Under the pieces are notes generated by a model, which worked only from the letters and a program-made list of their open reading frames with translations, did not search any database and was not told the origin of the DNA. Positions 3,508 to 19,495 of a stretch of 20,000 nucleotides of DNA are shown here, one piece after another. The stretch lies in IMG/VR virus record IMGVR_UViG_2838022645_000001, one strand, 5' to 3'. The position numbers and the translations under genes are program-made. Positions within the stretch are counted from its first letter, which is position 1. Every line of letters starts with the position of its first letter. Origin of the DNA: an uncultured virus (IMG/VR IMGVR_UViG_2838022645_000001) (lineage: Duplodnaviria; Heunggongvirae; Uroviricota; Caudoviricetes).

Positions 3508-5613
3508 ATGCCAGCACCTACAGCCGCAGTAGTCTTCGATGATTACAACACCTCTGGCGTTCCATCATCTGGGGCCAAAAAGGTAAAGAAGTCAGAAGCT
3601 CGCGCCTGGGGCTCCTGGCTTGAGTCGTTCATTACCGCGATCTCCGCCAATGCTGGCGCGATATACGCTACGAAGGCTGAGCTAGACGCCGACCTAAGCA
3701 AGGCCGCCAATACCATGGCTTGGGTCATGAGCGACGCGACCGCGGCAAATAATGGTGTATACCGCAAGAGCGGCGCATCCGGCACTGGCAGTTGGACTCG
3801 AATAGGCGATCTCCCATATTCGTTCATCGAGGCGCTCGACACCGGAGCCGGCACGCCCAACGCGATCCAGGCGACAAGCGATCTTCCGATTTCGGAAAGC
3901 GCCTTGGTTATCGTCAATGTATTCGAGGCCAACACCGGCTCGCCAGTTACGATCGCCTTTAATGGCGGATCTGCCCTGACGATCAAGACTAACTCCGGCA
4001 ACAATGTCGTCTCGGGCGGCTTAGTCGCCGGCATGAGGTTGTTCGGATATGTCTCCGGTTCCGTCTTTCAGCTAATCAGCGACCAAGTGTCCGCATCTAT
4101 CGTTGCAGCGGCCGAGGCGGCTGCGGCTGATGCAGAGGCGGCCCAAGCTGCGGCCGAAGCCGCAGCGGCTTCGGTCACCTTGCCGACGCCCGTTGCGCTG
4201 AACTACATCCGCGTAAAGGCGGACCTCACCGGCTACGAGACTAGGACGCCGACGCAGGTTCTTTCCGACATTGGCGGCGCGGCGGCAGGAAGCCTGGACC
4301 GAAGGGTAAAAGATTTCGGCGCCAAGGGTGATGCCGTCATCATCCGCGCTGCCGTGACGATCGCGTCAGGATCTGCAGCACTCACCGTGACCGGTGCGAA
4401 CTTCCAGACAACGGATGTCGGCAAGTCAATCGCGGTCGAAGGAGCTGGCACCAGCGGCGCGACGCTCTATTCAACGATCCTGTCCCGCACCAGCGCGACG
4501 CAGATCACGCTCGCAGCCAACGCATCGACGGCCATCTCCGCCGTCACTAAGACCGTCACCTATGGCACGGACGACACGGCAGCCTTCAACGCGGCAATCG
4601 CCGATATCGTCAGGCAGACGGCAAGCAATGACAACGCCATCTTCGGCGGCTCGCTCACCGTGGATGCGAAGGGCCGGTATTATCTGGCCAGCCCGATCGC
4701 CATCAACAAGCATGGCATCAAGATTAAGGGCGGCGGCTCGCACACCGATACCTGCATCATCGTTGCCCACGAGGGCTATGGCTTCTCATTCGAGAACAGT
4801 GATAGTAGCACAGCGCTGATGCGGTCCAACCGCGTCGAAGGCCTGCGCTTCCTCTCGACCGCAAGCACGAGAGCGGCAAACAGCGGTGCGATCTTCATGA
4901 ACCGCGCGCTGCAGTTCGTCGTTCAGGATTGCTGGTTTGCTGGACGTCAGCAGTTCGCCGTCCATCTTCAGGACTGCCTGGATGGCATCATCCGTGTGAA
5001 CCGGATCGATGGTCCAGTGGAAGCTTCGATCAACGGCTTCACATACGGATTCTGGCTTGACAGTAACAATACCCTTTCCGGCCCGAACCAGATTACCATC
5101 GAGAACAACTGGATCGAGAACTGCGCGACGGCGGGAATTCGAGTCACCGGCAACACTTCGTTCTCGGGCAACCAGGTCAATATCCGCGAAAACCTCATCC
5201 AAGGCGGCAGCGGCAACGGCATCATGTACGACAAGCAGAATGGTCTTAACATCCTGCGTAACTGGTTTGAGGACAACGGCCGTGACGCCGTGTCTGGCCG
5301 CGCCGCGATCCTAGATATCGGCGACAATGTCAGCCACCTCGTCACCTTCAAGGAGAATGTTTTCGGCGGCAACAACAACGCCAACGCCGATTTTCGCCAG
5401 TTCAGCATTCAGAAGGTCAACGGGTTGAAAGTGCTCGAGAACTTCTTCACCGGCGGCAGCCACATCCGCTGCACGACGTCAACCACATACAAGGTCTATA
5501 TCGCCGACAACTGGTCATCCGGGACAACGCCGACAGTGGATGCGATGACGACCGATGTCACCTATGCACGGAACACCTACGGCGATACTGGTACGGCCTG
5601 GACGACCGGCTAA
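3508..5613 (+). CDS. Tail fibre/tailspike with pectate-lyase-3-like right-handed beta-helix (putative polysaccharide depolymerase, receptor binding)
   Basis: 701 aa; N-terminal virion-anchor region, Ala/Glu coiled-coil linker, 'VKDFGAKGD...TDDTAAFNAAI' signature, Asn-ladder repeats (ITIENNWIEN, NIRENLI, ILRNWFE); GGAG RBS. Confidence 0.85.
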   Translation: MPAPTAAVVFDDYNTSGVPSSGAKKVKKSEARAWGSWLESFITAISANAGAIYATKAELDADLSKAANTMAWVMSDATAANNGVYRKSGASGTGSWTRIGDLPYSFIEALDTGAGTPNAIQATSDLPISESALVIVNVFEANTGSPVTIAFNGGSALTIKTNSGNNVVSGGLVAGMRLFGYVSGSVFQLISDQVSASIVAAAEAAAADAEAAQAAAEAAAASVTLPTPVALNYIRVKADLTGYETRTPTQVLSDIGGAAAGSLDRRVKDFGAKGDAVIIRAAVTIASGSAALTVTGANFQTTDVGKSIAVEGAGTSGATLYSTILSRTSATQITLAANASTAISAVTKTVTYGTDDTAAFNAAIADIVRQTASNDNAIFGGSLTVDAKGRYYLASPIAINKHGIKIKGGGSHTDTCIIVAHEGYGFSFENSDSSTALMRSNRVEGLRFLSTASTRAANSGAIFMNRALQFVVQDCWFAGRQQFAVHLQDCLDGIIRVNRIDGPVEASINGFTYGFWLDSNNTLSGPNQITIENNWIENCATAGIRVTGNTSFSGNQVNIRENLIQGGSGNGIMYDKQNGLNILRNWFEDNGRDAVSGRAAILDIGDNVSHLVTFKENVFGGNNNANADFRQFSIQKVNGLKVLENFFTGGSHIRCTTSTTYKVYIADNWSSGTTPTVDAMTTDVTYARNTYGDTGTAWTTG

Positions 5614-7677: not shown

Positions 7678-7992
7678 ATGGCTTTTTCAGGCCTTCATGT
7701 CGTTTGCGGTTATCCCGGCTCTCTGTTCGCTCGAGACAAATCCCAGGCCATCCTCGGCAAGATCGCATGGAGCGAGGCACCGACCAGCGGCGTGACGTCC
7801 ACCAACGTCGCTCCGACCGAAAGCGCCGGCTCCGGTCAGGCAATGTTCCGCATCCGCGCCGCCGCCGATTCCTGGGTATCGGTCGGCCCGACGCCGGACG
7901 CGACGACCGGCAAGCGCTTCCTTGTTCCGGCCGCGACTGACTACGACGTCTACGCCGAGCCGGGCGACAAATTCCAGTGGGTGGAGGCATAA
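7678..7992 (+). CDS. Phage hypothetical protein (predicted all-beta)
   Basis: 104 aa, AGGAG RBS, typical codon usage. Confidence 0.7.
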   Translation: MAFSGLHVVCGYPGSLFARDKSQAILGKIAWSEAPTSGVTSTNVAPTESAGSGQAMFRIRAAADSWVSVGPTPDATTGKRFLVPAATDYDVYAEPGDKFQWVEA

Positions 7993-7996
7993 CCAT

Positions 7997-9391
7997 ATGT
8001 CGACTCTGCAACTTGGTAGGGTGCCAAATCAGGCGCCCATTTCCATACCGGCGCGAGGTTACCGGCTTGGCGTCATCGGCACGTCCCTCGTGCAGCATAA
8101 TGAGAACGGCACATTTAGCCCGAAGATCTCCCACTGGTCACGCGGCTGGTTGTCTTGGGCGCGCTTCTATGCTGGCCGCCTATTCTCCTGCCCGATTTGG
8201 TGGGATAGCACTGTTTATGTCGGTTGGGAGCCTTCAGGAGTAGGTGGCGCGACGCGCTATTTTCAGGGCCTCAATGCAGGTGTCAGCGGCCAGACCTATG
8301 CGCAGATCGAAGCGCGCAAAGCGTATCTCGCTACCAAAGTTGATTGCGACATCATCATTATCGATGACGGCACCAATGACATGGGGCCCCAAACGAAAGA
8401 AAGCATCCAAGCCGCTCGCGAGGCGCTTGCAAGCTACTACCTGTCTTTCGGAAAAATCGTCATCCTCATGCCCATACTTGCGCGCGGCGTGGGTTCATGG
8501 ACTGGGGGCGGTCCAGAAAGGGCGAAGGCACATTGGATTAATCGCAAGACGCGCGAGTTTTGCCGCACCAAGAAGAATTGTTATTTCTTTGACTGGAACC
8601 TGTATTGGGCTGATTTAGCCTCAACCTACGGTGAACCGAAGAGCGGCTATTCCCCAGACTCCATCCACTTTAACCCGAAGGGTGGGGAATCGGTCGGATA
8701 TGGTTTGGTCCAGTTTCTCGCTACGATTTTGCCAGCCGCACAGAACTTCACGGCATATCCTGATGACTTGTTCGACGCCACGAACAACCCGCTGGGCAAC
8801 GTGTTGACGAATCCGCTCTGCCTCGGCACGACCGGGACGCTCGGTACTGGCGCTACAGGTTCAGTTGCGAATGGAATGCGGGTCGAGCGCTCATCAGGAG
8901 GATCGTCGGTCGTTGCATCAAAGGAAGCGAGATCGGATGGTCTCGGTGAATATGAGGTCATGACATTCACGCCGGCGGGTACGGCGGAAGACCTATTTTA
9001 CTTCCGCACCAACGCAGCTAACACGGCCCTGACGGGTGCCGTGGCTGGCGAGTGGTTCCAAGCCCGCTGCAAGGTTGAGACGAACAACTATGCAGGATTT
9101 ACCGGGGTTTCGTTGCTTCTGAATGATCAGGGCTCAACCTCGATGTCGGCTTACGCGATGGAGCCGTTTAACAGCGGTTCAGCCAACGAAAAATGGGCCG
9201 CACTCGCGCGCGCTGGTTATCTCGAAACGCCTGCGTTCCAAATCGCTGACGCTGCTCCTAACGTTCGTTGGCGGTTGGAAATTCGCTTTGACGCCAATGT
9301 GGCCGGTACGCCGATCGTCAAGTGCGGCGAAGTCGAGTTGCGTAAGGTGTCCGATCCGCGCACTCTCTTGCACTGGTCCGCGCCAGCGTAA
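7997..9391 (+). CDS. SGNH/GDSL-family esterase with a C-terminal beta-sandwich (carbohydrate-binding-like) domain
   Basis: ATG 7997 after GGAGG; block I 'GTSLV', block II 'NAGVSG', block III 'GTND', block V 'DSIH'; 464 aa. Confidence 0.82.
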   Translation: MSTLQLGRVPNQAPISIPARGYRLGVIGTSLVQHNENGTFSPKISHWSRGWLSWARFYAGRLFSCPIWWDSTVYVGWEPSGVGGATRYFQGLNAGVSGQTYAQIEARKAYLATKVDCDIIIIDDGTNDMGPQTKESIQAAREALASYYLSFGKIVILMPILARGVGSWTGGGPERAKAHWINRKTREFCRTKKNCYFFDWNLYWADLASTYGEPKSGYSPDSIHFNPKGGESVGYGLVQFLATILPAAQNFTAYPDDLFDATNNPLGNVLTNPLCLGTTGTLGTGATGSVANGMRVERSSGGSSVVASKEARSDGLGEYEVMTFTPAGTAEDLFYFRTNAANTALTGAVAGEWFQARCKVETNNYAGFTGVSLLLNDQGSTSMSAYAMEPFNSGSANEKWAALARAGYLETPAFQIADAAPNVRWRLEIRFDANVAGTPIVKCGEVELRKVSDPRTLLHWSAPA

Positions 9392-9781: not shown

Positions 9782-10797
9782 ATGACAAAGCCGCCTCGCA
9801 AGCCTTCCCAGCACTTGCTGGGTGACGCGGATGCACCACTCCGCCGCCGGCGCCGCCGGCGGCGCGATCCCGCCCAATCTCAACTGCTTCTCGACCCCAT
9901 GCCGGCGCGCGTCGCTCCTTGTCTCGCGCTCCTCAAGCCGCGGCCGCCGAAAGGTCCGCAATGGGCATATGAAGTAAAATGGGACGGCTACCGCCTGGCC
10001 ATCCACATTGAACCTGGCGGCGTCCGCATTCTGACGCGCGGCGGCCATAACTGGACGGACCGTTTTCCCGCCATCGCCGCCCAGGCAAAGCGTCTTCCTG
10101 TTTCGACGGCGATACTGGACGGTGAGGCCGTCGTGTTTGACGAACTGGGCCGGTCGGATTTCGGCAAGCTTCAGCAGTCGCTCGGTGGCAAGGGCGGAAA
10201 GCGGATATCGTTGGAGTCGGTCTTAATGGTCTTCGATGTCCTCTATCTCGCCGGCGCCATCTCCTCGAGGGGATAGTGCCGCCCGGCGGGGAGGAAGCTA
10301 TTCGCCTCTCCGAGGAGATCGAAGCGGACGGTGAAACGCTTCTGCGCATCGCCTGCGAGCATGGGCTTGAAGGCATCATCGCCAAGGATCGGAACAGCAC
10401 CTATCGCGGCGGTAGGTACGGCGACTGGCTGAAGATCAAATGCATCCAGAGCGACGGCTTTGCCATCATTGGCTATCAGAAATCTAGCTCGGCGTTCGGA
10501 AATATCGGCGCGCTGCTGCTTGCGGCGCGAAAGGACGGGAAATTGGTCTACGTCGGATCGGTCGGGACGGGCTTTAAGGCAGACCAGGCAATGCAGCTGC
10601 GTGCAACCATGGACAAGATGAAGGTGTCAGCGCCAGCGGTTAGGTACACTGGCCGGCGCAAGAACCTGATATGGATTAAGCCCACTCTGGTCGCCGAGAT
10701 CGAGTATCGATCCTGGACGCATGACGGCAAGCTACGGCATCCGTCATATAAGGGTCTGCGGGATCCAGCGGATAATTCTGCCATCTATGAATTTTAG
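9782..10797 (+). pseudogene. ligD: ATP-dependent DNA ligase (LigD ligase-domain type), frameshifted near 10250
   Basis: Motifs I (EVKWDGYR), III (LDGE) and IIIa (VFDVL) lie in ORF 9782-10276. Motifs IV (EGIIAK), V (WLKIK) and VI (LRHPSYKG) lie in a different frame that ends at 10797. The usual 'DG.DL' segment after FD.L is missing. Confidence 0.85.
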
Positions 10798-10900: not shown

Positions 10901-11611
10901 ATGAGATTCTACAGATATGCGGCCGTAGCCGTTCTGACATTCGCAATCACCATGTTCGGTGTCGTCGCGCTCGCCGTGCCGAGCCAGCCGGTCTATACCA
11001 CGGTCACCAATACGATCGTCCAGGCGCCGGCGACCACATCCGAAGATTCGTCCATCAAGATTTCCGTCGGCAATGGCCTCGGCTCCGGCGTCCACATCGG
11101 CGGCGGCAATATCGTGACGGCGGCACACGTCATCGACGACGCCAAGACGGTCAAGATCAAGACCAATGCCGGCATCGAGAGCGATGCGACAGTGCTCTGG
11201 GTCAACAAAGACTACGACATCGCGCTGATCCACACCGACGGCAACGTCGCCGGTTCCAGCGAGCTTGATTGCCGTGAGCCGCGATTCGGCGAGCAGATCC
11301 AGGCCGTCGGCAATCCGCTTGGCATGGAGTTCATCGCGTCGTTCGGCAGAGTTGCCGGTGCTGGCCGCCAGCTAGGCAACTGGAAGAGCGTTGTCGTAAC
11401 TGACATGACCACGGTCATGGGACAATCAGGTGGCGGCATCTTTGCAAATGACGGCCGCGTGGTCGGCATCAATGTCGGCGTTACTCTTGCGCCGCTCAAG
11501 TCCGGCAAGGATGCAGCCGGCGCCGACACCTACACGCCGACCATGACCGGCTTCGGCTTCGTGGTTCCGGCTTCGGTTGTTTGCGATCTGCTGGCGCGGA
11601 GGGCTTCGTGA
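10901..11611 (+). CDS. Exported trypsin-like (S1/HtrA-type, no PDZ) serine protease
   Basis: N-terminal signal/TM; 'GSGV', 'TAAHV' (His), 'DIALI' (Asp), 'GQSGG' (Ser). Confidence 0.9.
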   Translation: MRFYRYAAVAVLTFAITMFGVVALAVPSQPVYTTVTNTIVQAPATTSEDSSIKISVGNGLGSGVHIGGGNIVTAAHVIDDAKTVKIKTNAGIESDATVLWVNKDYDIALIHTDGNVAGSSELDCREPRFGEQIQAVGNPLGMEFIASFGRVAGAGRQLGNWKSVVVTDMTTVMGQSGGGIFANDGRVVGINVGVTLAPLKSGKDAAGADTYTPTMTGFGFVVPASVVCDLLARRAS

Positions 11612-11751
11612 TGCGGGCGCTCTTCACCTTTTTCACTGTAACGTGCGGGCTTCTATCTGTTGCGTTTTCAAATGCCGACATGCGCGGCGGAACATTGTTC
11701 ATGGTGTTCTTTTGCGCGCTGTTCGCGTCAATGAGGGAGGCAACCATATGA
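11611..11751 (+). CDS. 46-aa two-TM peptide (not in the ORF track)
   Basis: MRALFTFFTVTCGLLSVAFSNADMRGGTLFMVFFCALFASMREATI. TGATG overlap with the protease stop, ATGA overlap with the next start, GGAGG upstream. Confidence 0.65.
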   Translation: MRALFTFFTVTCGLLSVAFSNADMRGGTLFMVFFCALFASMREATI

Positions 11752-12290
11752 CGGCCCTCTCGAGATACATTGTCGCCAATGTCTGCTGGATTTCGGTCAT
11801 GGTGTGGGCGGCGGTCCTGGGCTTCGTCCAGATGGCATTCCTCGCCGACGCAGCGCACATAAGCTACGTCATCACGGCATTGTTCATCTTCGGCCTGTAT
11901 TCGACAACAGCGCGCATCATCGAAGTCGATAGGCTTTCGACGGCGCTCTCCAAGAAGAGAATTTGGGTCGCCGGCGAGCGGCGCGCCTTGGCCAAGGGCG
12001 CAAGGTTGCTTGCTATCCGCATCGAACATGTTGTCGACGTCATCGAGGGCCTCGTCCTCATCGGCCTGATCGGCAACGCCATAGGGTTTTTCATGGCCTT
12101 CAGGCATGTCGACATATCTGCGATGAAGTCCAGTGACGGAGTTATGGCGAATGCTGCTCATCTCATGGCTGGGACGGGCACAGCGTTCGGTGCAACCATT
12201 GTCGGATGCGTTCTCGCTCTCTGGACGATCCAGAATGGCCGAATGCTGAAGACGGCTGCCGCGATATACGCCGAGGATATCGCGGAATGA
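11748..12290 (+). CDS. MotA/TolQ/ExbB proton-channel family membrane protein
   Basis: ATG 11748 after GGAGG; 180 aa, about four TM helices; 'LIGLIGNAIGFFMAF' and 'AGTGTAFGATIVG' match the two conserved C-terminal helices (GL.GT..G...AF; G...A..TT..G). Confidence 0.75.
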   Translation: MTALSRYIVANVCWISVMVWAAVLGFVQMAFLADAAHISYVITALFIFGLYSTTARIIEVDRLSTALSKKRIWVAGERRALAKGARLLAIRIEHVVDVIEGLVLIGLIGNAIGFFMAFRHVDISAMKSSDGVMANAAHLMAGTGTAFGATIVGCVLALWTIQNGRMLKTAAAIYAEDIAE

Positions 12291-12844
12291 GCAGCGGCAA
12301 GGCAACTTCAATAGGCTTCAGAGACGTTCTTCTGTGCCTAAATGCTGTCCTCGGTGCGCTTGTTCTCATCGTTCTTTCGGCAATCAATCCGGCGGCCAAA
12401 GATGATCCCGCCCAGCTGCCCGGCAACCTCGTCGCCAGCATCGCCTGGCCAGCTGGCAGCACTGACGTCGACTTGTGGGTCCAGTATGGCGATGATCTAG
12501 CCGTCGGCTACAGCCATCGCTCCGATCGCGTTTGGAGTCTTCTTCGCGACGATCTGGGCACCGCGAATGACGATACACCTTTGAACGCGGAATCCGCCTT
12601 CACACGCGGCCTGCCTGATGGCGAGTATGCCATCAACGTTCGCTGCTTCGGCTGCGCAAAGGTGCCGGTGCCAGTGTCCGTCGAGGTGCGGCTGGCCGAA
12701 GGTGGCGTCGTATGGCGCGCCACGGTCGACCTACTCAAGGACAAGCAGGAGCGGACGGCGATCCGGTTTCGTATGGCTGGCGGGCAGGTCGTGCCTGGTT
12801 CGGCGTCGAGTGTGTTCAAGCAGATGAAGAGAGGAGAGGGGTGA
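12287..12844 (+). CDS. Single-TM protein with ExbD/MotB-like TM Asp and a YfaP/DUF2135-like extracytoplasmic domain
   Basis: ATGA overlap with the upstream gene; 'FRDVLL' at the start of the TM; 'W.....DVDLWV', 'RDDLG', 'N.E....RG...GEY.INV'; 185 aa. Confidence 0.65.
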   Translation: MSSGKATSIGFRDVLLCLNAVLGALVLIVLSAINPAAKDDPAQLPGNLVASIAWPAGSTDVDLWVQYGDDLAVGYSHRSDRVWSLLRDDLGTANDDTPLNAESAFTRGLPDGEYAINVRCFGCAKVPVPVSVEVRLAEGGVVWRATVDLLKDKQERTAIRFRMAGGQVVPGSASSVFKQMKRGEG

Positions 12845-13104
12845 TGGAAATAGTGATCGCAGTAGCAATTTGGCTTGGCATTGGCGCGGCTGGCTCCGCA
12901 CTTAGTGTCGAGTTCTTCTGGCGTCGTGGGTCATTCCCTATGGACGTCGATCTGACAGACGTCGGATTCTTCTCGGTGATGGCGATACTCGGGCCAATCA
13001 ACCTGATCATCGGATTTCTTTTCGCACTCGGATGGCTATTTCGGAAAGCTCTCAAGTCGTCTGGAATCGACCCGCAAGCAAAAATCCTCAAGGCGCGCCG
13101 CTAA
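12844..13104 (+). CDS. Two-TM membrane protein
   Basis: ATG 12844 (TGATG overlap), AGGAG RBS; 86 aa, two hydrophobic helices, basic C-terminal tail. Confidence 0.7.
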   Translation: MEIVIAVAIWLGIGAAGSALSVEFFWRRGSFPMDVDLTDVGFFSVMAILGPINLIIGFLFALGWLFRKALKSSGIDPQAKILKARR

Positions 13105-13541
13105 TGACCCCCGCCATCACCCTATGGCTAGCCTTCGTGCTGGCCGCCGGCATTATTTGCTGGACAGCAAATAACAAGCGGCAAGCCGTCGCCTTCCTGC
13201 TTGTCGCACTGGCAACCGCACCCGCAGCATTCATCACGCTCGGCCACGCTGCGCCATGGCAGCCCGCCAAAGGCCACTACACCGTGCTTGGCGCGCGCAT
13301 CGATGTCGACGAGGCAATCTATGTCCTACTCGACGGCAAGCCGGAGCCGCGCTTCTACAAGCTGCCGTATTCCGCCCAGCAGGCGAACAGTCTGCAGAAC
13401 GCGCTTGACACCGCCGAGGCCAACGGCACTGGCGTCGGCATGACAATGGACGGCGATGCGGCAGGCTTTGCCGAAGAGGGCGGCCAGCGAGGCGGATCCG
13501 AAGTGAAGCAGGCTGAGCCGCAAGCGATTATTGGAGGGTAG
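13104..13541 (+). CDS. Membrane protein with two N-terminal TMs and a soluble 'PRFYKLPYS' domain
   Basis: ATG 13104 (TAATG overlap); 145 aa. Confidence 0.7.
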   Translation: MTPAITLWLAFVLAAGIICWTANNKRQAVAFLLVALATAPAAFITLGHAAPWQPAKGHYTVLGARIDVDEAIYVLLDGKPEPRFYKLPYSAQQANSLQNALDTAEANGTGVGMTMDGDAAGFAEEGGQRGGSEVKQAEPQAIIGG

Positions 13542-13870: not shown

Positions 13871-15121
13871 ATGCCCACACCTCGCCTCAGTGACGAACTC
13901 GCCAAGGAAGCCGCCGACGCGTTCGAAGCGCTCGGCAACAAATCGCAGGCCGCCGAACTGCTCGGCCTGCCGCGCAACACGTTCAATTCGCGCCTGAAGA
14001 TCGCCGCCGAGCGCGGCATGTGCGGCACGAAGCCGGTTCTGCCGGGGTTCCGCATCGCGCAGATCAGCAACACGCCGAACGGCGACTATATCAAGCAGCG
14101 GCCGGAAGCTGGCGCCGAATTCGACATCCCAGCCGGGCATACCATCAAGGGCGTCTCTGCGCTCGTCGACGCGGACGGCCGGACTATCCAGCAATGGATC
14201 AAGACCCGCAACGAATACGCGCCGCAAGACGTCGCCGCCATTCTCAAGGAAGCGTTCGTCGATGTGCCGCCGGCTGAGCCTAGAGCACTCAATACCGTCC
14301 CGACCGACGACCTTCTGACGCTCACGCCCCTTGCGGATTTCCACGTCGGTTTGTTCGCATGGCATCGCGAGACAGGCGCCAATTGGGATCTATCGATCGC
14401 CGAACGGGTAATCGGCGGGGCGCTCGACGAGTTGATCGCCAGAACGCCACCGAGCGGCCATGCCATCGTATTGGGTGGCGGCGACCTGCTCCACTCGGAT
14501 AGCAATGAGAACAAGACGGCAAAGTCTGGCAACGTCCTGCAGGTCGACGGGCGTTACCAGAAGGTGCTGATGACGGCGTGCCGACTGGTCGTCCGCGCGA
14601 TCGACGCCAACCTCGCTAGGCACGGCCATGTTACTGTCCGCATCTTGCCGGGCAATCATGACGAACACGCCTCGGTGGCCGTCGCCTACTTCCTGCTGGC
14701 CTGGTATCGCAATGAGCCGCGCGTCACCGTCGACGTGGATCCGTCGCTGTTCTTCTGGTTCCGCTTCGGGCGCGTCTTATTGGGGGCAACGCACGGCCAC
14801 ACGGTCAAGCTCAAGGATATGGCCAGCATCATGGCCCACCGCCGCGCCGAGGACTGGGGCGCTACCGTGCATCGATTCATTCACGGCTTCCACATCCACC
14901 ACTCGAGCAAGTATGCGACGGAGGGCAACGGCGTGATTTCGGAATCGCACCAGACACCGACGCCGCAGGATGCGTGGCATTGGGGCGCAGGCTTCCTGTC
15001 TGGCCGCTCGATGCAGTCGATTAGCTACCATCGCGAGTTTGGTGAAGTCTCGCGTGTGCGGGTCGCCATGATGGATGCGGCAAACGATAACGAGCCGGCA
15101 GAGCAGAGGAGGGCGGCGTGA
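13871..15121 (+). CDS. Fis-type HTH fused to a calcineurin-like metallophosphoesterase
   Basis: ATG 13871 after GGAG; 'GNKSQAAELLGLPRNTFNSRL' HTH; motifs DFHVG, GGDLLH, GNHD, HGH, FHIHH; 416 aa. Confidence 0.85.
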   Translation: MPTPRLSDELAKEAADAFEALGNKSQAAELLGLPRNTFNSRLKIAAERGMCGTKPVLPGFRIAQISNTPNGDYIKQRPEAGAEFDIPAGHTIKGVSALVDADGRTIQQWIKTRNEYAPQDVAAILKEAFVDVPPAEPRALNTVPTDDLLTLTPLADFHVGLFAWHRETGANWDLSIAERVIGGALDELIARTPPSGHAIVLGGGDLLHSDSNENKTAKSGNVLQVDGRYQKVLMTACRLVVRAIDANLARHGHVTVRILPGNHDEHASVAVAYFLLAWYRNEPRVTVDVDPSLFFWFRFGRVLLGATHGHTVKLKDMASIMAHRRAEDWGATVHRFIHGFHIHHSSKYATEGNGVISESHQTPTPQDAWHWGAGFLSGRSMQSISYHREFGEVSRVRVAMMDAANDNEPAEQRRAA

Positions 15122-15410: not shown

Positions 15411-15860
15411 ATGCTGAACAGAAGCGCAAACGCTAAAGCGTATCATGACGCGGGCCTCGTGCCCGCCAACGACAACTATTCCCACGCATCCGCCATCAAC
15501 CTGTTTGCGGCCGACTGCCACGCAGCAAGCCGCAAAGCCGGCTGGTGCACGAACCTCGCGACTGGGCGTGCATTGGACAGAAACGTGCCAGAAATGATGA
15601 TGCTGATCGTGAGCGAAATCAGCGAAGCCATGGAGGGCTATCGCAAATCTACCGGCGGCAAGGTCAAGATGGACGACAAGCTGCCGCACAGGCCAAACGC
15701 TGAAGTCGAACTGGCCGATGCCATGATCCGCATCGGCGATCTGGCAACTTTCCTTGGCTTCGACCTGGGCGGCGCGATCGTCGAGAAGATGGCATTCAAC
15801 GCCAACCGCGAAGATCACAAGATCGAGAACCGCAAGGCCGCTGGCGGGAAGGCGTTTTGA
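15411..15860 (+). CDS. MazG-like nucleoside triphosphate pyrophosphohydrolase
   Basis: 'LIVSEISEAMEGYRK' and 'EVELADAMIRIGDL' (ExxE...ExxD) motifs; AGGAG RBS. Confidence 0.82.
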   Translation: MLNRSANAKAYHDAGLVPANDNYSHASAINLFAADCHAASRKAGWCTNLATGRALDRNVPEMMMLIVSEISEAMEGYRKSTGGKVKMDDKLPHRPNAEVELADAMIRIGDLATFLGFDLGGAIVEKMAFNANREDHKIENRKAAGGKAF

Positions 15861-16786
15861 TGACCATGAACACGGCAAGAGAAGCGGCGATGCTGGCCGC
15901 TATACCGAATCCGCCAGAACAGTATAACCCCGAACCGCTCATGGTCGAAGGCCTTGGCGCCGTTCCTGTGGTGCTGCCGAAGTACTCGCCGGCGAATGAC
16001 AACGTCGAGGGTGGCAAGCGTTACCACAGCGGCGGTCTTGTTGGCGGGCCTGGCGGTGATGTGGCGCCAATCATGAAGATCGACCACGTCATCCCGCGCG
16101 CGCAGTACGAGGCCATCATGGAGCGCGGCCAGTACGTCGGATTGCGTCGACACACAGACATTGGCGCGCGAGTCGTGGCGGCTGTCGAAAAGGAGATTGC
16201 CGCCAGCCGTCCCTTGTCCTCGGACAGCGGACATCCCGCCCGAACCGGCGACTTCATGCAGACGGCGACCGGCCGCAAGTTTTGGCCCCTCGACCCGCGG
16301 AGCGAAGAAGTCTTCATCGAGGACATCGCGCACTCACTGAGCCTGCAATGCCGCTACGCCGGCCACTGCCTGCGCTTCTACAGCGTCGCCGAGCATTGCG
16401 TACTCATGGCCCGCAAGCTTCGCTGGGAAGGCGTGGACGTGGCTCTGTGGGCGCTGCTGCACGATGCGGCGGAAGCCTACACCGTTGACGTTCCGCGCCC
16501 GCTCAAGCGCCACCTAGTTGGCTACAAGGAAGCCGAGGCGAAAGTCATGGCTGCGATCGCCGATCGGTTCGGCCTGGCGGCGGAAATGCCTGCCGTTGTG
16601 CATGATGCCGACAACCGCATCATTGCCGACGAGCTCGTCAACCTCGTGCCGATGGAGTGGCACGCGCGCTATGCGGGCCAGGAACTGGGCGTGACGCTGC
16701 GCTACTGGTCGCCGGAGAAGGCGCGGGAAGAGTTCATGGCGACGTTTGACGCGCTGATGGATTGCAGGGCGAGGGGGATGGCGTGA
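15860..16786 (+). CDS. HD-domain phosphohydrolase (YfbR/YfdR-like 5'-deoxynucleotidase) with a long N-terminal extension
   Basis: 'IEDIAHSLS..CRYAGH', 'YSVAEHC', 'ALLHDAAEAY..D'; catalytic domain starts near residue 130; ATG 15860 by TGATG overlap. Confidence 0.85.
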   Translation: MTMNTAREAAMLAAIPNPPEQYNPEPLMVEGLGAVPVVLPKYSPANDNVEGGKRYHSGGLVGGPGGDVAPIMKIDHVIPRAQYEAIMERGQYVGLRRHTDIGARVVAAVEKEIAASRPLSSDSGHPARTGDFMQTATGRKFWPLDPRSEEVFIEDIAHSLSLQCRYAGHCLRFYSVAEHCVLMARKLRWEGVDVALWALLHDAAEAYTVDVPRPLKRHLVGYKEAEAKVMAAIADRFGLAAEMPAVVHDADNRIIADELVNLVPMEWHARYAGQELGVTLRYWSPEKAREEFMATFDALMDCRARGMA

Positions 16787-16983
16787 TGCTGCACTACTAT
16801 ATGTTTAGTTTCGCCATGGAGAGAGGCGGCTTCGCCCGCGTCACGATCGGATGGCCTGACGCGATAGTCACGGAAAGCCGCGTGGCATTTGCCAGAGAAA
16901 AGGCTATCGGCGCGCAACCAAACGCCTGCCCAATTGCCGTTAGTTATCTTGGGCACATGATGCCGGAGGTTGCGATCGCATGA
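16786..16983 (+). CDS. Phage hypothetical protein
   Basis: 65 aa, stop/start overlaps at both ends. Confidence 0.6.
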   Translation: MLHYYMFSFAMERGGFARVTIGWPDAIVTESRVAFAREKAIGAQPNACPIAVSYLGHMMPEVAIA

Positions 16984-17210
16984 CCAACACCACAGGCTGG
17001 AACATCTGGCGCGGCGATGGTGATTGCCCCGTCAACAAAGAGGCGATCGTCGACATCCGCCTGCGCAACGGGCGGATTATAGAAGGGGCAACGGCTGGCC
17101 GCTATCTGTGGGCGCGTCCGCAGCGCGAAGTGGAGGGCAACTGGAGCCCGCAGAGAACTGAGAACGGCGGCATTATCGTCGCGTATCGCGAAGTGGGGGA
17201 AGTGGCGTGA
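16980..17210 (+). CDS. Phage hypothetical protein
   Basis: 76 aa, ATGA overlap, GGAGG RBS; 'W.G..CPV...V.IRLRNG...W...IVAYR' pattern. Confidence 0.7.
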   Translation: MTNTTGWNIWRGDGDCPVNKEAIVDIRLRNGRIIEGATAGRYLWARPQREVEGNWSPQRTENGGIIVAYREVGEVA

Positions 17211-17452
17211 TGGACGATATAGCAGTTTGCGAGCTTTGCGGACACCCGATGGCACCCGGCGAGGAGATGTTCAAATTCCACGGATACAGCGGGCCGTGCC
17301 CAGAAGAACCATCGGAGGAGCACCTCAAGGCGGTAGCGGAGAAGCGCTTTTCGGAGTGGCTAAACGAAGGCCATGAGTTGGCGAAAGCCGCAGGGTGCGG
17401 TGTTATCATAAATGTCTCTCCATCATCAGATGCCGAAGGCGGTGCAGCATGA
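17210..17452 (+). CDS. Phage hypothetical protein with Cys/His motif
   Basis: 'CELCGHPMAPGEEMFKFHGYSGPCP'; coupled start (GTG 17207 or ATG 17210). Confidence 0.65.
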   Translation: MDDIAVCELCGHPMAPGEEMFKFHGYSGPCPEEPSEEHLKAVAEKRFSEWLNEGHELAKAAGCGVIINVSPSSDAEGGAA

Positions 17453-17526
17453 GATCGGCAGTTGAATGGATAATCTGCTTACTCGCAGTTGGCGGCATGG
17501 TTTCGGCCATGTGGGTGATGCTGTGA
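17449..17526 (+). CDS. 25-aa single-TM peptide (not in the ORF track)
   Basis: MRSAVEWIICLLAVGGMVSAMWVML; ATGA overlap with the upstream stop, GTGA overlap with the downstream start. Confidence 0.5.
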   Translation: MRSAVEWIICLLAVGGMVSAMWVML

Positions 17527-17837
17527 CCCCAACGCCAAAATACATCGAAACCGTCAAGCGTCGCGTATGGGAAATCCACATTCGCGACCACGACAAGCAT
17601 ATCCGCCGCGAAGATCTGAACGCCGTTCTCGGCGGAGTCGATTTCGTTCTCGACTACTACAGCAATAAAGTAGCGGAGCTGGAGGCGGTCATCGCAGCAG
17701 AGAGGACCACCAACCAAATTGAATGTAGTCGGTATGCGTACGAGCGTGACGTGGCGCGCCGAGAGCGGGATGACCTTATAGCGCAACAGTCATCCCCCAC
17801 GCCCACTTCAATCACCGGGGAGACCTTAGCATCATGA
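17523..17837 (+). CDS. Phage hypothetical protein (coiled-coil C-terminus)
   Basis: ORF 17466-17837; GTG 17523 preferred because of coupling to the upstream peptide. Confidence 0.6.
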   Translation: MTPTPKYIETVKRRVWEIHIRDHDKHIRREDLNAVLGGVDFVLDYYSNKVAELEAVIAAERTTNQIECSRYAYERDVARRERDDLIAQQSSPTPTSITGETLAS

Positions 17838-18124
17838 CAACAATGATCGAGCGGGTGGCGCGGGCCATAGCAAAAGAAAACAATACGGACGCTGCATTTG
17901 ATCTCCCTTGGGAGTTCTTTATTGGACAAGCCCGCGCCGTCCTTGAAGAGATACGCGAGCCGTCGGCGGCGCAACTGGCCGCCGCTGAGGAGATTGTCGT
18001 CGGCTATGACGACTTCGCATGCGGCGATGGCAATGTCTATCTCGCCTACCCAGAGTACTACGACAAGGCCAAGCACGTTTGGCAGTCGCTGATAGACGCA
18101 GCACTCAAGGAGGAAACACCATGA
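17834..18124 (+). CDS. Phage hypothetical protein
   Basis: 96 aa; 'MIERVARAIA...AR.....REP...W...IDAAL' pattern; ATGA overlaps at both ends. Confidence 0.7.
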   Translation: MTTMIERVARAIAKENNTDAAFDLPWEFFIGQARAVLEEIREPSAAQLAAAEEIVVGYDDFACGDGNVYLAYPEYYDKAKHVWQSLIDAALKEETP

Positions 18125-18813
18125 CCGAGAACCAAGTACCAGCCTGGACGCCCGCCGGCGAGCTCACCGCAGTGCCGGCCTCCAATGACAACGTTCCTTC
18201 CGAATTGCGCGCGCTTGGCGCGGCAATAGGGAAGCATGAAAGTAGCGACAGCCCACAACAGAATATTAGTGCGGCCAACGATAACTTCCCGCCCGTCGTC
18301 GCATTCACCGGCCAGGCTGGCGCCGGCAAGTCTACGGCCACCCGCTACCTCGTCGAGCAGCACGACTATACACTCGTCAAGTTCGCCGGGCCGCTCAAGG
18401 ATATGATGCGGGCTATTGGTTTGGCGGAGGATCAGATCGAAGGCGACCTGAAAGAAACGCCGACGCGGCTACTGCAAGGAAAAACACCGCGGCACGCGAT
18501 GCAGGCCCTTGGTACGGAGTGGGGCAGGGATCTGATCGGCAAGGATTTCTGGACATTCTTGTGGGAGCATCGCGCTCTTCAGGTCATTGACGCCGGCGGC
18601 CGCGTCGTTACAGACGACTGCCGCTTTCCGAACGAAGCGCAGCTTATCCGCCGACTGGGCGGAGACATCTACAAGATCGCTGGCCGTGGCGGCATTGCTG
18701 GTGACCACGTCAGCGAGCGCGGCTGCGGTGATCAGGATCTGGTGATTGCGAACGCTGGCGCGGTCGCAGAGTTGCACGGCAAGATCGAGGAGGCGCTGCG
18801 GCGGTATGGGTGA
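18121..18813 (+). CDS. Deoxynucleoside monophosphate kinase (T4 gp1-like)
   Basis: ATG 18121 after AAGGAGG; P-loop GQAGAGKST, 'FAGPLK', 'TPRHAMQALGTEWGR', 'DDCRFPNE'; about 58-aa N-terminal extension. Confidence 0.88.
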   Translation: MTENQVPAWTPAGELTAVPASNDNVPSELRALGAAIGKHESSDSPQQNISAANDNFPPVVAFTGQAGAGKSTATRYLVEQHDYTLVKFAGPLKDMMRAIGLAEDQIEGDLKETPTRLLQGKTPRHAMQALGTEWGRDLIGKDFWTFLWEHRALQVIDAGGRVVTDDCRFPNEAQLIRRLGGDIYKIAGRGGIAGDHVSERGCGDQDLVIANAGAVAELHGKIEEALRRYG

Positions 18814-18881: not shown

Positions 18882-19076
18882 GTGGAGTGTGAAGTTAGAG
18901 AGGGCGACCTTCTCATGGGCGCCAACGCAATCGCCAAGTTTCTTGGCGTAACATCGCGGCAAGTCTACCGGCTCACCTACGGAGATTTGATGCCGCATTT
19001 CAAACTAGGCGGTAGCGTTGCGGCTCGCCGTTCGTCGCTCACAAAATGGATGGCTGAACAAGAGGCGGCATCCTGA
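18882..19076 (+). CDS. Small HTH DNA-binding protein (excisionase/AlpA-like)
   Basis: 64 aa 'DLLMGANAIAKFLGVTSRQVYRL...P.FKLG...ARRSSL..W'; GAGGAG RBS. Confidence 0.78.
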   Translation: MECEVREGDLLMGANAIAKFLGVTSRQVYRLTYGDLMPHFKLGGSVAARRSSLTKWMAEQEAAS

Positions 19077-19495
19077 TGGCGTACTTTGTATATGCGGTGG
19101 GTGGGAAGGACGACGCTGGCCCTCTATCTGGCATGCTAAAAATAGGTCGCGCGCGGGATCCGCATAACAGGCTTGTCGAGCTTCAGATCGGATGCCCGTT
19201 TCAGGTTGAACTAAAGCGGATATGGCGATTCTCAACTCAGAGCCACGGATGCGAATTTGAGTTAGCGTGTCACAAGCGGTTCCGGAACCAGAAGGTAAGC
19301 GGAGAGTGGTTCCGCATCGATCTGGAAAACGTGCATCAATTCATTGTTGAGTTGGCCGAAGTTCGGATGCTGCAAATATCACACGCAGATGGCAACAACT
19401 CGGCTCCATGCCCAACTCCACCTGCTCCTCCGAAGTTTTCTTTGGCTAATGCAGCAAAAGCGTTCATGGAGGCCAGAAGACAGGCCGCTATGTGA
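19076..19495 (+). CDS. GIY-YIG superfamily protein (T5orf172/MUG113-like)
   Basis: 'FVYAV', 'LKIG...DP..RL..LQ.G.P', 'E...H..F', 'GEWF'. Confidence 0.82.
   Translation: MAYFVYAVGGKDDAGPLSGMLKIGRARDPHNRLVELQIGCPFQVELKRIWRFSTQSHGCEFELACHKRFRNQKVSGEWFRIDLENVHQFIVELAEVRMLQISHADGNNSAPCPTPPAPPKFSLANAAKAFMEARRQAAM

What the first reader, a model, noticed from the sequence alone, without database searches (positions are those of the whole stretch)
15465..18288. Internal ANDN motifs in the N-terminal extensions of three unrelated nucleotide enzymes
Seen: ANDNY (15465-15479, MazG-like), ANDNV (from 15992, HD hydrolase), and SNDNV (from 18181) plus AANDNF (18271-18288) in the dNMP kinase. Each sits in a Pro-rich, probably disordered extension before the catalytic domain. 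Codons differ between copies, so the repeat is at protein level. AANDNF equals the first six residues of the Caulobacter tag. With the C-terminal mimic at 15077, all four nucleotide enzymes carry the motif. Inference: a phage short linear motif docking on host SspB, for coordinated ClpXP turnover, adaptor sequestration or enzyme scaffolding. I know of no description of this system but could not search the literature.
Basis: partly seen in the sequence, partly recalled or inferred. Interest (0 to 1): 0.82.

Follow-up and report, generated by a model that had tools for sequence, protein, structure and literature searches.

The report
Phage enzymes copy host ssrA tag
A temperate phage of a Rhizobium-type bacterium has written the first four residues (Ala-Asn-Asp-Asn) of its host's "destroy-me" tag into the loose ends of many unrelated proteins, including three nucleotide enzymes that lack the tag's Ala-Ala ending; this probably lets them dock on the host protease adaptor SspB, but no binding or degradation has been measured.

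Summary
The four motifs are at the stated coordinates and lie in translated N-terminal extensions of a MazG-like enzyme, an HD hydrolase and a dNMP kinase. They are not special to nucleotide enzymes. The window is the end of a 66-kb 16-3-like prophage with 17 ANDN in 16 of 88 called proteins, against 13 in 6,087 host proteins (133-fold; shuffles average 0.23). The host's tmRNA tag begins ANDN, its gene lies beside sspB, and 18 of 19 alphaproteobacterial tags read here begin ANDN. Orthologues from ANDN-rich phages keep NDN in otherwise hypervariable extensions (134 of 148) with free codon choice. The C-terminal Ala-Ala comes and goes (12 changes against 3 on the kinase tree; absent from all 19 motif-bearing MazG). 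The head is therefore selected on its own. Best reading: a stand-alone SspB docking motif that ties phage proteins to ClpXP turnover (0.55); shielding or titration 0.2. Binding is untested. This scan noted the same motif on at least eight other genomes or windows; my ten paper searches found no description.

The parts
13871..15121 (+). Metallophosphoesterase / DNA-repair exonuclease, 416 aa (PHROG 704), ending in a complete ssrA-like tail
   Evidence: 34 of 38 non-redundant orthologues have NDN in the last 30 residues, 33 of those 34 end AA or VA
15077..15121 (+). C-terminal tag mimic AANDN-x7-AA-stop (ANDN to stop 13 residues; host tag 12)
15411..15860 (+). MazG-like nucleotide pyrophosphatase, 149 aa (PHROG 5658), ends GGKAF, no AA degron
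   Evidence: weak match to MazZ 7ody, E 0.013
15465..15479 (+). Internal ANDNY motif, residues 19-23; equals the first five encoded residues of this host's tmRNA tag
15860..16786 (+). HD-domain deoxynucleoside 5'-monophosphate phosphatase-like protein, 308 aa (PHROG 318), about 127-aa N-terminal extension, ends ARGMA
15992..16006 (+). Internal ANDNV motif, residues 45-49
18121..18813 (+). dNMP kinase, 230 aa (PF21448, PHROG 139; fold of 1dek), 57-aa extension, ends RRYG
18181..18195 (+). SNDNV, variant motif (residues 21-25); many orthologues have ANDNV at this site
18271..18288 (+). AANDNF (residues 51-56), in coil just before the first strand of the kinase core
4624..4635 (+). SNDN in the tail fibre protein (residue 373 of 701); possibly chance, not followed up

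Best explanation
[P/A]-A-N-D-N is a phage-encoded copy of the adaptor-binding head of the alphaproteobacterial tmRNA (ssrA) tag. It works as a modular docking site for the host adaptor SspB. Step 1 (shown): one lineage of 16-3-like temperate phages keeps the motif in the flexible ends of about a fifth of its proteins. Step 2 (inferred from identity to the invariant tag head): the host SspB dimer binds it. Step 3 (inferred from the known SspB-ClpX tethering mechanism): SspB tethers the protein to ClpXP. Proteins with a nearby or distant C-terminal AA/VA are then degraded like tagged proteins. The three enzymes in this window have no AA end, so they would be adaptor-dependent substrates, engaged through a weak C-terminal or N-terminal site only when tethered, as engineered DAS+4 tags are. 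The result is that early and accessory phage proteins are short-lived and their levels follow SspB/ClpXP capacity.
For: Enrichment 133-fold over the host; 17 of 18 DNA matches are in frame in called genes, using 11 different 12-mers. In related loci 270 distinct motif contexts use 28 of the 32 possible 12-mers, and the Ala codon is not biased towards the host tmRNA's GCA (p 0.28). Host tag ANDNYAEARLAA, with sspB about 155 bases after the tmRNA gene. The host SspB matches solved SspB structures 2qas/2qaz (E about 1e-36) and 2nys. 18 of 19 tmRNA tags found in 28 sspB loci begin ANDN, vary after it, and all 19 end AA. Prophage proteins with NDN end in AA more often than the others (10 of 21 against 7 of 67, p 5.6e-4). 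Orthologues of HD and the kinase that have the motif end AA/VA in 37 of 62 and 32 of 63 cases. The motif sits in coil of lower model confidence, with Pro- and Ala-rich flanks. SspB tethering and SspB-dependent weak degrons are described in PMC8138137 (passages).
Against: No binding or degradation data exist here. None of the three window enzymes has an AA end, and 0 of 19 motif-bearing MazG orthologues do (they end in the family's GGKAF-type tail), so the ClpX engagement site is unidentified. Some copies lie only 4 residues from the N-terminus, which leaves little tail to engage. The motif is also in the portal and tape measure proteins, where turnover is less obviously useful. Other phages of hosts with the same kind of tag lack it, so it is not needed to infect such hosts. 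That SspB-alpha reads N-D-N is recalled from Chien et al. 2007 (Structure), which is not held.
Confidence: 0.55

Rival explanations
1. The motif binds SspB, but for the AA-less enzymes this does not cause degradation. It shields them from other proteases, or multimeric enzymes titrate SspB and so slow turnover of tagged host proteins and of the phage's own AA-ended proteins.
For: The motif is kept while AA is lost: 3 changes against 12 on the kinase tree, 11 against 16 for HD, and AA never appears in MazG. 8 of 20 [A/S]NDN sites in this prophage are internal in proteins with no AA/VA end. The kinase has two copies.
Against: There is usually one copy per protein, spread over enzymes, and no dedicated multi-repeat decoy was seen. 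The association with AA ends points to delivery, not blocking.
Confidence: 0.2
2. The reader is not SspB but another host protein that recognises the tag head, or a phage-encoded factor of this lineage.
For: The motif is lineage-specific, not host-specific. Its preferred context, Pro/Ala before and Pro two residues after (50/36% and 64% of 159 internal sites), is not what most host tags show. There is an unchecked report of it in a Pseudomonas phage.
Against: It equals exactly the part of the tag that is invariant across alphaproteobacteria. All 20 of 40 named genome loci that carry it have alphaproteobacterial titles. The genome has only one SspB-family gene, the host's.
Confidence: 0.15
3. 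The motif scaffolds a nucleotide-metabolism complex, using dimeric SspB or another hub.
For: Four adjacent enzyme genes all carry it.
Against: It is equally present in the helicase, methyltransferases, SSB-like and sigma-like proteins, portal and tape measure. An SspB dimer holds two substrates (bioRxiv 10.1101/2020.06.12.148478, passage).
Confidence: 0.06
4. It is a DNA- or RNA-level element, or a neutral relic.
For: Half of the Ala codons in the motifs of phages 16-3 and AP-16-3 are GCA, as in the host tmRNA gene.
Against: In-frame bias of 17 of 18. Free synonymous use and no GCA excess in 270 contexts. No longer DNA repeat family joins the sites. It is retained in 134 of 148 orthologues whose flanking sequences do not align.
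Confidence: 0.04

Closest known systems
Native alphaproteobacterial tmRNA (ssrA) tag read by SspB and ClpXP (Caulobacter tag AANDNFAEEFAVAA, PMC1233412; SspB structures 2qas, 2qaz)
   Same: Same head residues. Seven prophage proteins also have the AA end 8-16 residues from ANDN. The host has ssrA, sspB and clpX.
   Different: Encoded in phage genes, not added by trans-translation. In the three window enzymes it is internal, 130-264 residues from the C-terminus, and there is no AA end.
RseA(1-108), the natural SspB-delivered ClpXP substrate of E. coli (PMC8138137, Table 1 passage)
   Same: A genome-encoded protein that uses SspB.
   Different: One host protein, exposed by cleavage, whose listed sequence does not contain the tag head. 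Here one motif recurs in 16 unrelated phage proteins.
Engineered DAS+4 and related SspB-dependent degrons (PMC8138137 passages)
   Same: An adaptor site separated from a weak or absent ClpX site makes degradation depend on SspB.
   Different: Synthetic, C-terminal, with a spacing of a few residues. A natural N-terminal placement was not found in my searches.
Phage proteins with ClpX degrons (MuA, lambda O; PMC8138137 passages)
   Same: Phage proteins are known ClpXP substrates through encoded terminal signals.
   Different: Those are single proteins with direct ClpX signals and no adaptor head.
Rhizobium phage 16-3 and Sinorhizobium phage AP-16-3
   Same: Closest named relatives of the enzymes, with 18 and 23 ANDN-coding sites and the same mix of C-terminal, split and internal sites.
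   Different: The annotation seen for 16-3 (bases 24000-33000 only) does not mention the motif. This prophage sits in tRNA-Thr.

Membership tests
tmRNA (ssrA) tag | Added to stalled chains from tmRNA | tested here: not met
   The motifs are in frame in phage ORFs; no tmRNA gene in the window
tmRNA (ssrA) tag | Head residues ANDN of the alphaproteobacterial tag | tested here: met
   Host tag and 18 of 19 other tags begin ANDN; one of the four internal sites is SNDN
tmRNA (ssrA) tag | C-terminal Ala-Ala about 10-16 residues after the head | tested here: not met
   MazG, HD and kinase end GKAF, RGMA, RRYG; met only by the exonuclease tail at 15077
SspB ligands / SspB-delivered ClpXP substrates | Host encodes SspB and ClpX | tested here: met
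SspB ligands / SspB-delivered ClpXP substrates | Direct binding to the SspB groove | not testable with these tools
SspB ligands / SspB-delivered ClpXP substrates | SspB-stimulated degradation by ClpXP | not testable with these tools
   Needs degradation assays
Short linear motif | Short motif recurring above chance in unrelated proteins | tested here: met
   16 of 88 proteins, 0.18 expected
Short linear motif | Lies in disordered or accessible sequence | tested here: inconclusive
   Kinase model: both sites in coil, pLDDT blocks 56-84 in residues 1-60 against mostly over 90 in the core. Flanks are Pro/Ala-rich. MazG and HD were not modelled; the tape measure site may be structured.
Short linear motif | Conserved island under protein-level selection | tested here: met
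   134 of 148 orthologues in ANDN-rich loci keep NDN in extensions of 14-337 residues; 28 of 32 codon spellings used
Short linear motif | Independent gains | tested here: inconclusive
   The MazG tree has two separate motif-bearing groups (5 changes, 2 forced by starred branches) and HD 11 changes (5 forced), but these are unrooted FastTree trees on few columns; the kinase is compatible with one origin
dNMP kinase (PF21448, T4 gp1 fold) | Family profile and fold | tested here: met
   PF21448 above its cut-off; best fold match 1dek, E 2.7e-8; activity not tested
MazG-like pyrophosphatase and HD 5'-deoxynucleotidase | Family profile | tested here: met
   PHROG 5658 E 3e-63 and PHROG 318 E 5e-67; no Pfam or NCBIfam hit; activity not tested

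The most novel reading that the evidence does not exclude
The ANDN head has been uncoupled from the degron and used as a free-standing adaptor-docking module across a phage proteome. Phage proteins and ribosome-rescue products then compete for the same SspB groove, so the stability of many replication and nucleotide enzymes reports the host's load of stalled ribosomes. That would be a proteome-wide post-translational input into lytic development, with the AA-less multimeric enzymes acting as buffers.
Probability: 0.2. Interest if true: 0.88.

Novelty: new variant of a known kind. Interest (0 to 1): 0.7.

Why it matters
It would be a natural case of a virus wiring much of its proteome to a host protease adaptor by motif mimicry, and of the SspB-binding head working away from the C-terminus. 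The test is easy: phage 16-3 of Sinorhizobium meliloti is a long-studied laboratory phage with 18 such sites. The natural variants (C-terminal, split, internal) would also form a ready library of tunable degrons for alphaproteobacteria.

Tried and rejected
1. SspB-peptide complex prediction: not available for this window, so there is no structural result for or against binding. 2. Single-sequence fold of the kinase: uninformative (pLDDT 34); repeated with an alignment. 3. Idea that MazG orthologues lacking ANDN carry a ClpX-binding tail like SspB's instead (one lineage begins SDNVVTL): such patterns are not enriched in this prophage or in ANDN-rich loci; dropped. 4. Copying from tmRNA DNA: no GCA excess in 270 contexts. 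5. DNA repeat family: none beyond one 16-nt pair of motif copies. 6. Host-tag covariation: ANDE...AA tails exist in viral contigs, but I could not assign hosts. The ANDE helicase had no close named relative and one other protein matched Burkholderia phages at about 31% only. Inconclusive. 7. Look-up of the tag peptide among solved chains found nothing. 8. Literature: ten full-text searches showed no listing about this motif in phages. I saw search listings only, except passages of PMC8138137, PMC9382460, PMC3064785, PMC1233412 and bioRxiv 10.1101/2020.06.12.148478. Subscription papers, including the primary SspB-alpha papers, are not covered, and no supplements were read.
Full report
Observation. 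All five motif sites are at the stated coordinates and in frame. The ORFs are a PHROG 704 metallophosphoesterase/exonuclease, a MazG-like pyrophosphatase (PHROG 5658), an HD 5'-deoxynucleotidase-like protein (PHROG 318) and a dNMP kinase (PF21448; best fold match 1dek). The motifs are at residues 19 (MazG), 45 (HD), and 21 and 52 (kinase), upstream of the catalytic domains. Ribosome-binding sites or stop/start overlaps support the upstream starts. The HD and kinase extensions are Pro-rich (10-11%); the MazG extension is not (3%). In an AlphaFold2 model built on 77 sequences, both kinase sites are in coil; confidence is 56-84 over residues 1-60 and mostly over 90 in the core.

Context. The window is the right end of a prophage bounded by a 57-bp repeat at C9:268 and C9:66212 that overlaps tRNA-Thr. 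Its enzymes are closest to those of Rhizobium phage 16-3 and relatives. 19 of the genome's 49 six-frame ANDN lie in it. With my own simple gene caller (6,175 genes, approximate starts), 17 ANDN fall in 16 of 88 prophage proteins, against 13 in 6,087 others. That is 133-fold per residue; 1000 shuffles gave mean 0.227 and maximum 2. The other eleven permutations of these letters occur 0-3 times in the prophage and 3-12 times in the host, so the host neither uses nor avoids the motif noticeably. Eleven copies are in the early arm, two in the packaging/virion/lysis block (portal, tape measure) and four in this arm. Carriers include the helicase, two methyltransferases, an SSB-like and a sigma-like protein. 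The link to nucleotide enzymes is therefore an effect of the window. Of 20 [A/S]NDN sites, 7 are complete C-terminal mimics, 3 are 'split' (AA end far away; a term taken from an earlier scan note), 2 are near a C-terminus without AA, and 8 are internal without AA. The four sites of this finding are in the last class.

Protein-level selection. 17 of 18 DNA matches are in frame in called genes, and they use 11 different 12-mers. In 137 ANDN-rich related loci, 270 distinct contexts use 28 of 32 spellings, and Ala codon use equals the background before Asn (p 0.28). From three scans of viral contigs (best 80 loci kept of 90, 85 and 262) I extracted complete orthologues and removed those over 90% alike. 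In loci with at least two other ANDN, NDN is present in the extension of 19 of 24 MazG, 59 of 67 HD and 56 of 57 kinase orthologues. In the other loci it is present in 0 of 40, 3 of 18 and 7 of 21. These groups are phylogenetically related, so the tests overstate independence. The extensions vary from 14 to 337 residues and mostly do not align. The 100% conservation of NDN in my position tables is by construction. The flanking preferences are not: Pro/Ala before (50/36%), Ala first (89%) and Pro at +2 (64%) of 159 sites.

The head is independent of the tail. Motif-bearing HD and kinase orthologues end in AA/VA in 37 of 62 and 32 of 63 cases; MazG orthologues in 0 of 19. On FastTree trees of the catalytic cores, the motif changes 3 times and the AA end 12 times in the kinase; 11 and 16 times in HD; 5 and 0 times in MazG, which has two separate motif-bearing groups (few columns, unrooted, long branches flagged). 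The window's own kinase lies in a group of 20 that all keep the motif while 17 lack AA. This is the main addition of this finding: the head is retained where no AA degron exists.

Host side. The host tmRNA (Rfam alpha_tmRNA) encodes ANDNYAEARLAA, and the MazG site matches its first five residues. sspB follows directly, matches the solved SspB chains 2nys, 2qas and 2qaz, and clpX is present. SspB was found in 57 of 61 genomes sampled from the class (this tally includes one unpublished genome, G040, which was not used further). In 28 sspB loci ARAGORN found 19 tmRNA genes; 18 tags begin ANDN, one ANSN, and all end AA with a variable middle. The phage motif thus copies the invariant head. The Caulobacter tag is printed in PMC1233412. 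SspB tethering to ClpX, and weak tags that are degraded only with SspB, are described in PMC8138137 (passages). That SspB-alpha recognises N-D-N is recalled from Chien et al. 2007, which I could not read.

Distribution. 16-3 has 18 and AP-16-3 has 23 ANDN-coding sites (backward-pattern controls 0 and 1). RHph_N17, Atu_ph08, RcRhea, phiE255, AH2, YO041_1 and KP1 have none, and KT1 has one (10 records examined). Of 40 named genome loci with a relative of the kinase, 20 carry ANDN and all 20 have alphaproteobacterial titles, mostly Rhizobiaceae. The other 20, which include Bradyrhizobium and other alphaproteobacteria, have none. So this is a trait of a phage lineage. In viral contigs, a pattern for head...AA-stop was in frame in 101 of 122 ANDN loci (30 tmRNA genes, 54 protein tails), 76 of 119 ANDE loci (35, 34) and 24 of 100 control ANDQ loci (1, 14). 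ANDE tails are not clustered (0.10 further copies per 10 kb against 1.07). Single-protein tag mimicry may therefore be wider, while the proteome-wide form was seen only for ANDN.

Mechanism. Shown: an enriched, selected, lineage-specific peptide equal to the tag head, associated with AA ends (10 of 21 against 7 of 67). Inferred: SspB binding (about 0.8 overall), then delivery to ClpXP (0.55) or shielding/titration (0.2). A different reader (0.15), a scaffold (0.06) and a nucleic-acid-level or neutral element (0.04) are less likely. The weak point is that no ClpX engagement site is known for the three enzymes.

Novelty. It is not an ssrA tag, since it is gene-encoded and here lacks the AA end, but it probably works like the tag's adaptor half. 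Ten searches of the held library showed no paper on it; subscription journals and supplements were not covered. Earlier AI notes of this scan report the same motif in eight other windows. They are not independent evidence, and I had reached the SspB reading before seeing them. One of them reports a Pseudomonas phage; I could not check it, and it would favour a broader reader if true. Verdict: real, a new variant of a known kind, interest 0.7.

Noticed in passing
G000 C9:268 and C9:66212 (outside the window): 57-bp direct repeat overlapping tRNA-Thr(GGT): attachment sites of a roughly 66-kb prophage.
   Followed up: yes
G000 C9:32827-34077 and 42354-44933: The portal ends in a complete ANDN...AA tail, and the tape measure protein has ANDN at residue about 47. 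Both are conserved in 16-3 and AP-16-3, so two virion proteins carry the motif.
   Followed up: partly
G000 C9:16472-18199 and 21004-21360: The helicase ends DWEDIPF just after its ANDN (DEVPF in 16-3), and a small protein ends GDIPF. These acidic-PF tails recall the C-terminus of bacterial SSB (recalled resemblance), a possible second mimicked motif.
   Followed up: no
L352, L353, L357 and similar viral contigs: A phage helicase family ends in ANDEHRRAA, and other viral proteins have ANDE...AA tails; these are possible tag mimics for hosts with ANDE tags. Hosts not assigned.
   Followed up: partly
L100, L118, L021, L105, L018 (MazG orthologues): One lineage replaces the ANDN extension with one beginning [S/A]DNVVTL, which resembles the first half of the SspB C-terminal tail; no general enrichment.
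   Followed up: yes
window 18121-18813 and orthologues: Many kinase orthologues end RRYG, RRWG or RRFG in place of RRAA or RRVA: a candidate alternative weak degron.
   Followed up: no
window 9782-10797: What looks like an ATP-dependent DNA ligase is split over two consecutive ORFs (judged from the translation only).
   Followed up: no
window 10901-13541: Accessory cluster: a trypsin-like protease with a hydrophobic N-terminus (PF13365) followed by several membrane-type ORFs without family hits.
   Followed up: no
window 7922-9391: GDSL/SGNH hydrolase (PF13472, PHROG 6102) after the lysis genes.
   Followed up: no
window 19076-19495: T5orf172/MUG113 (GIY-YIG-like) protein next to the excisionase-like HTH gene at 18882-19076.
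   Followed up: no
L293-L321: ssrA and sspB are neighbours in 19 of 28 alphaproteobacterial sspB loci examined.
   Followed up: yes
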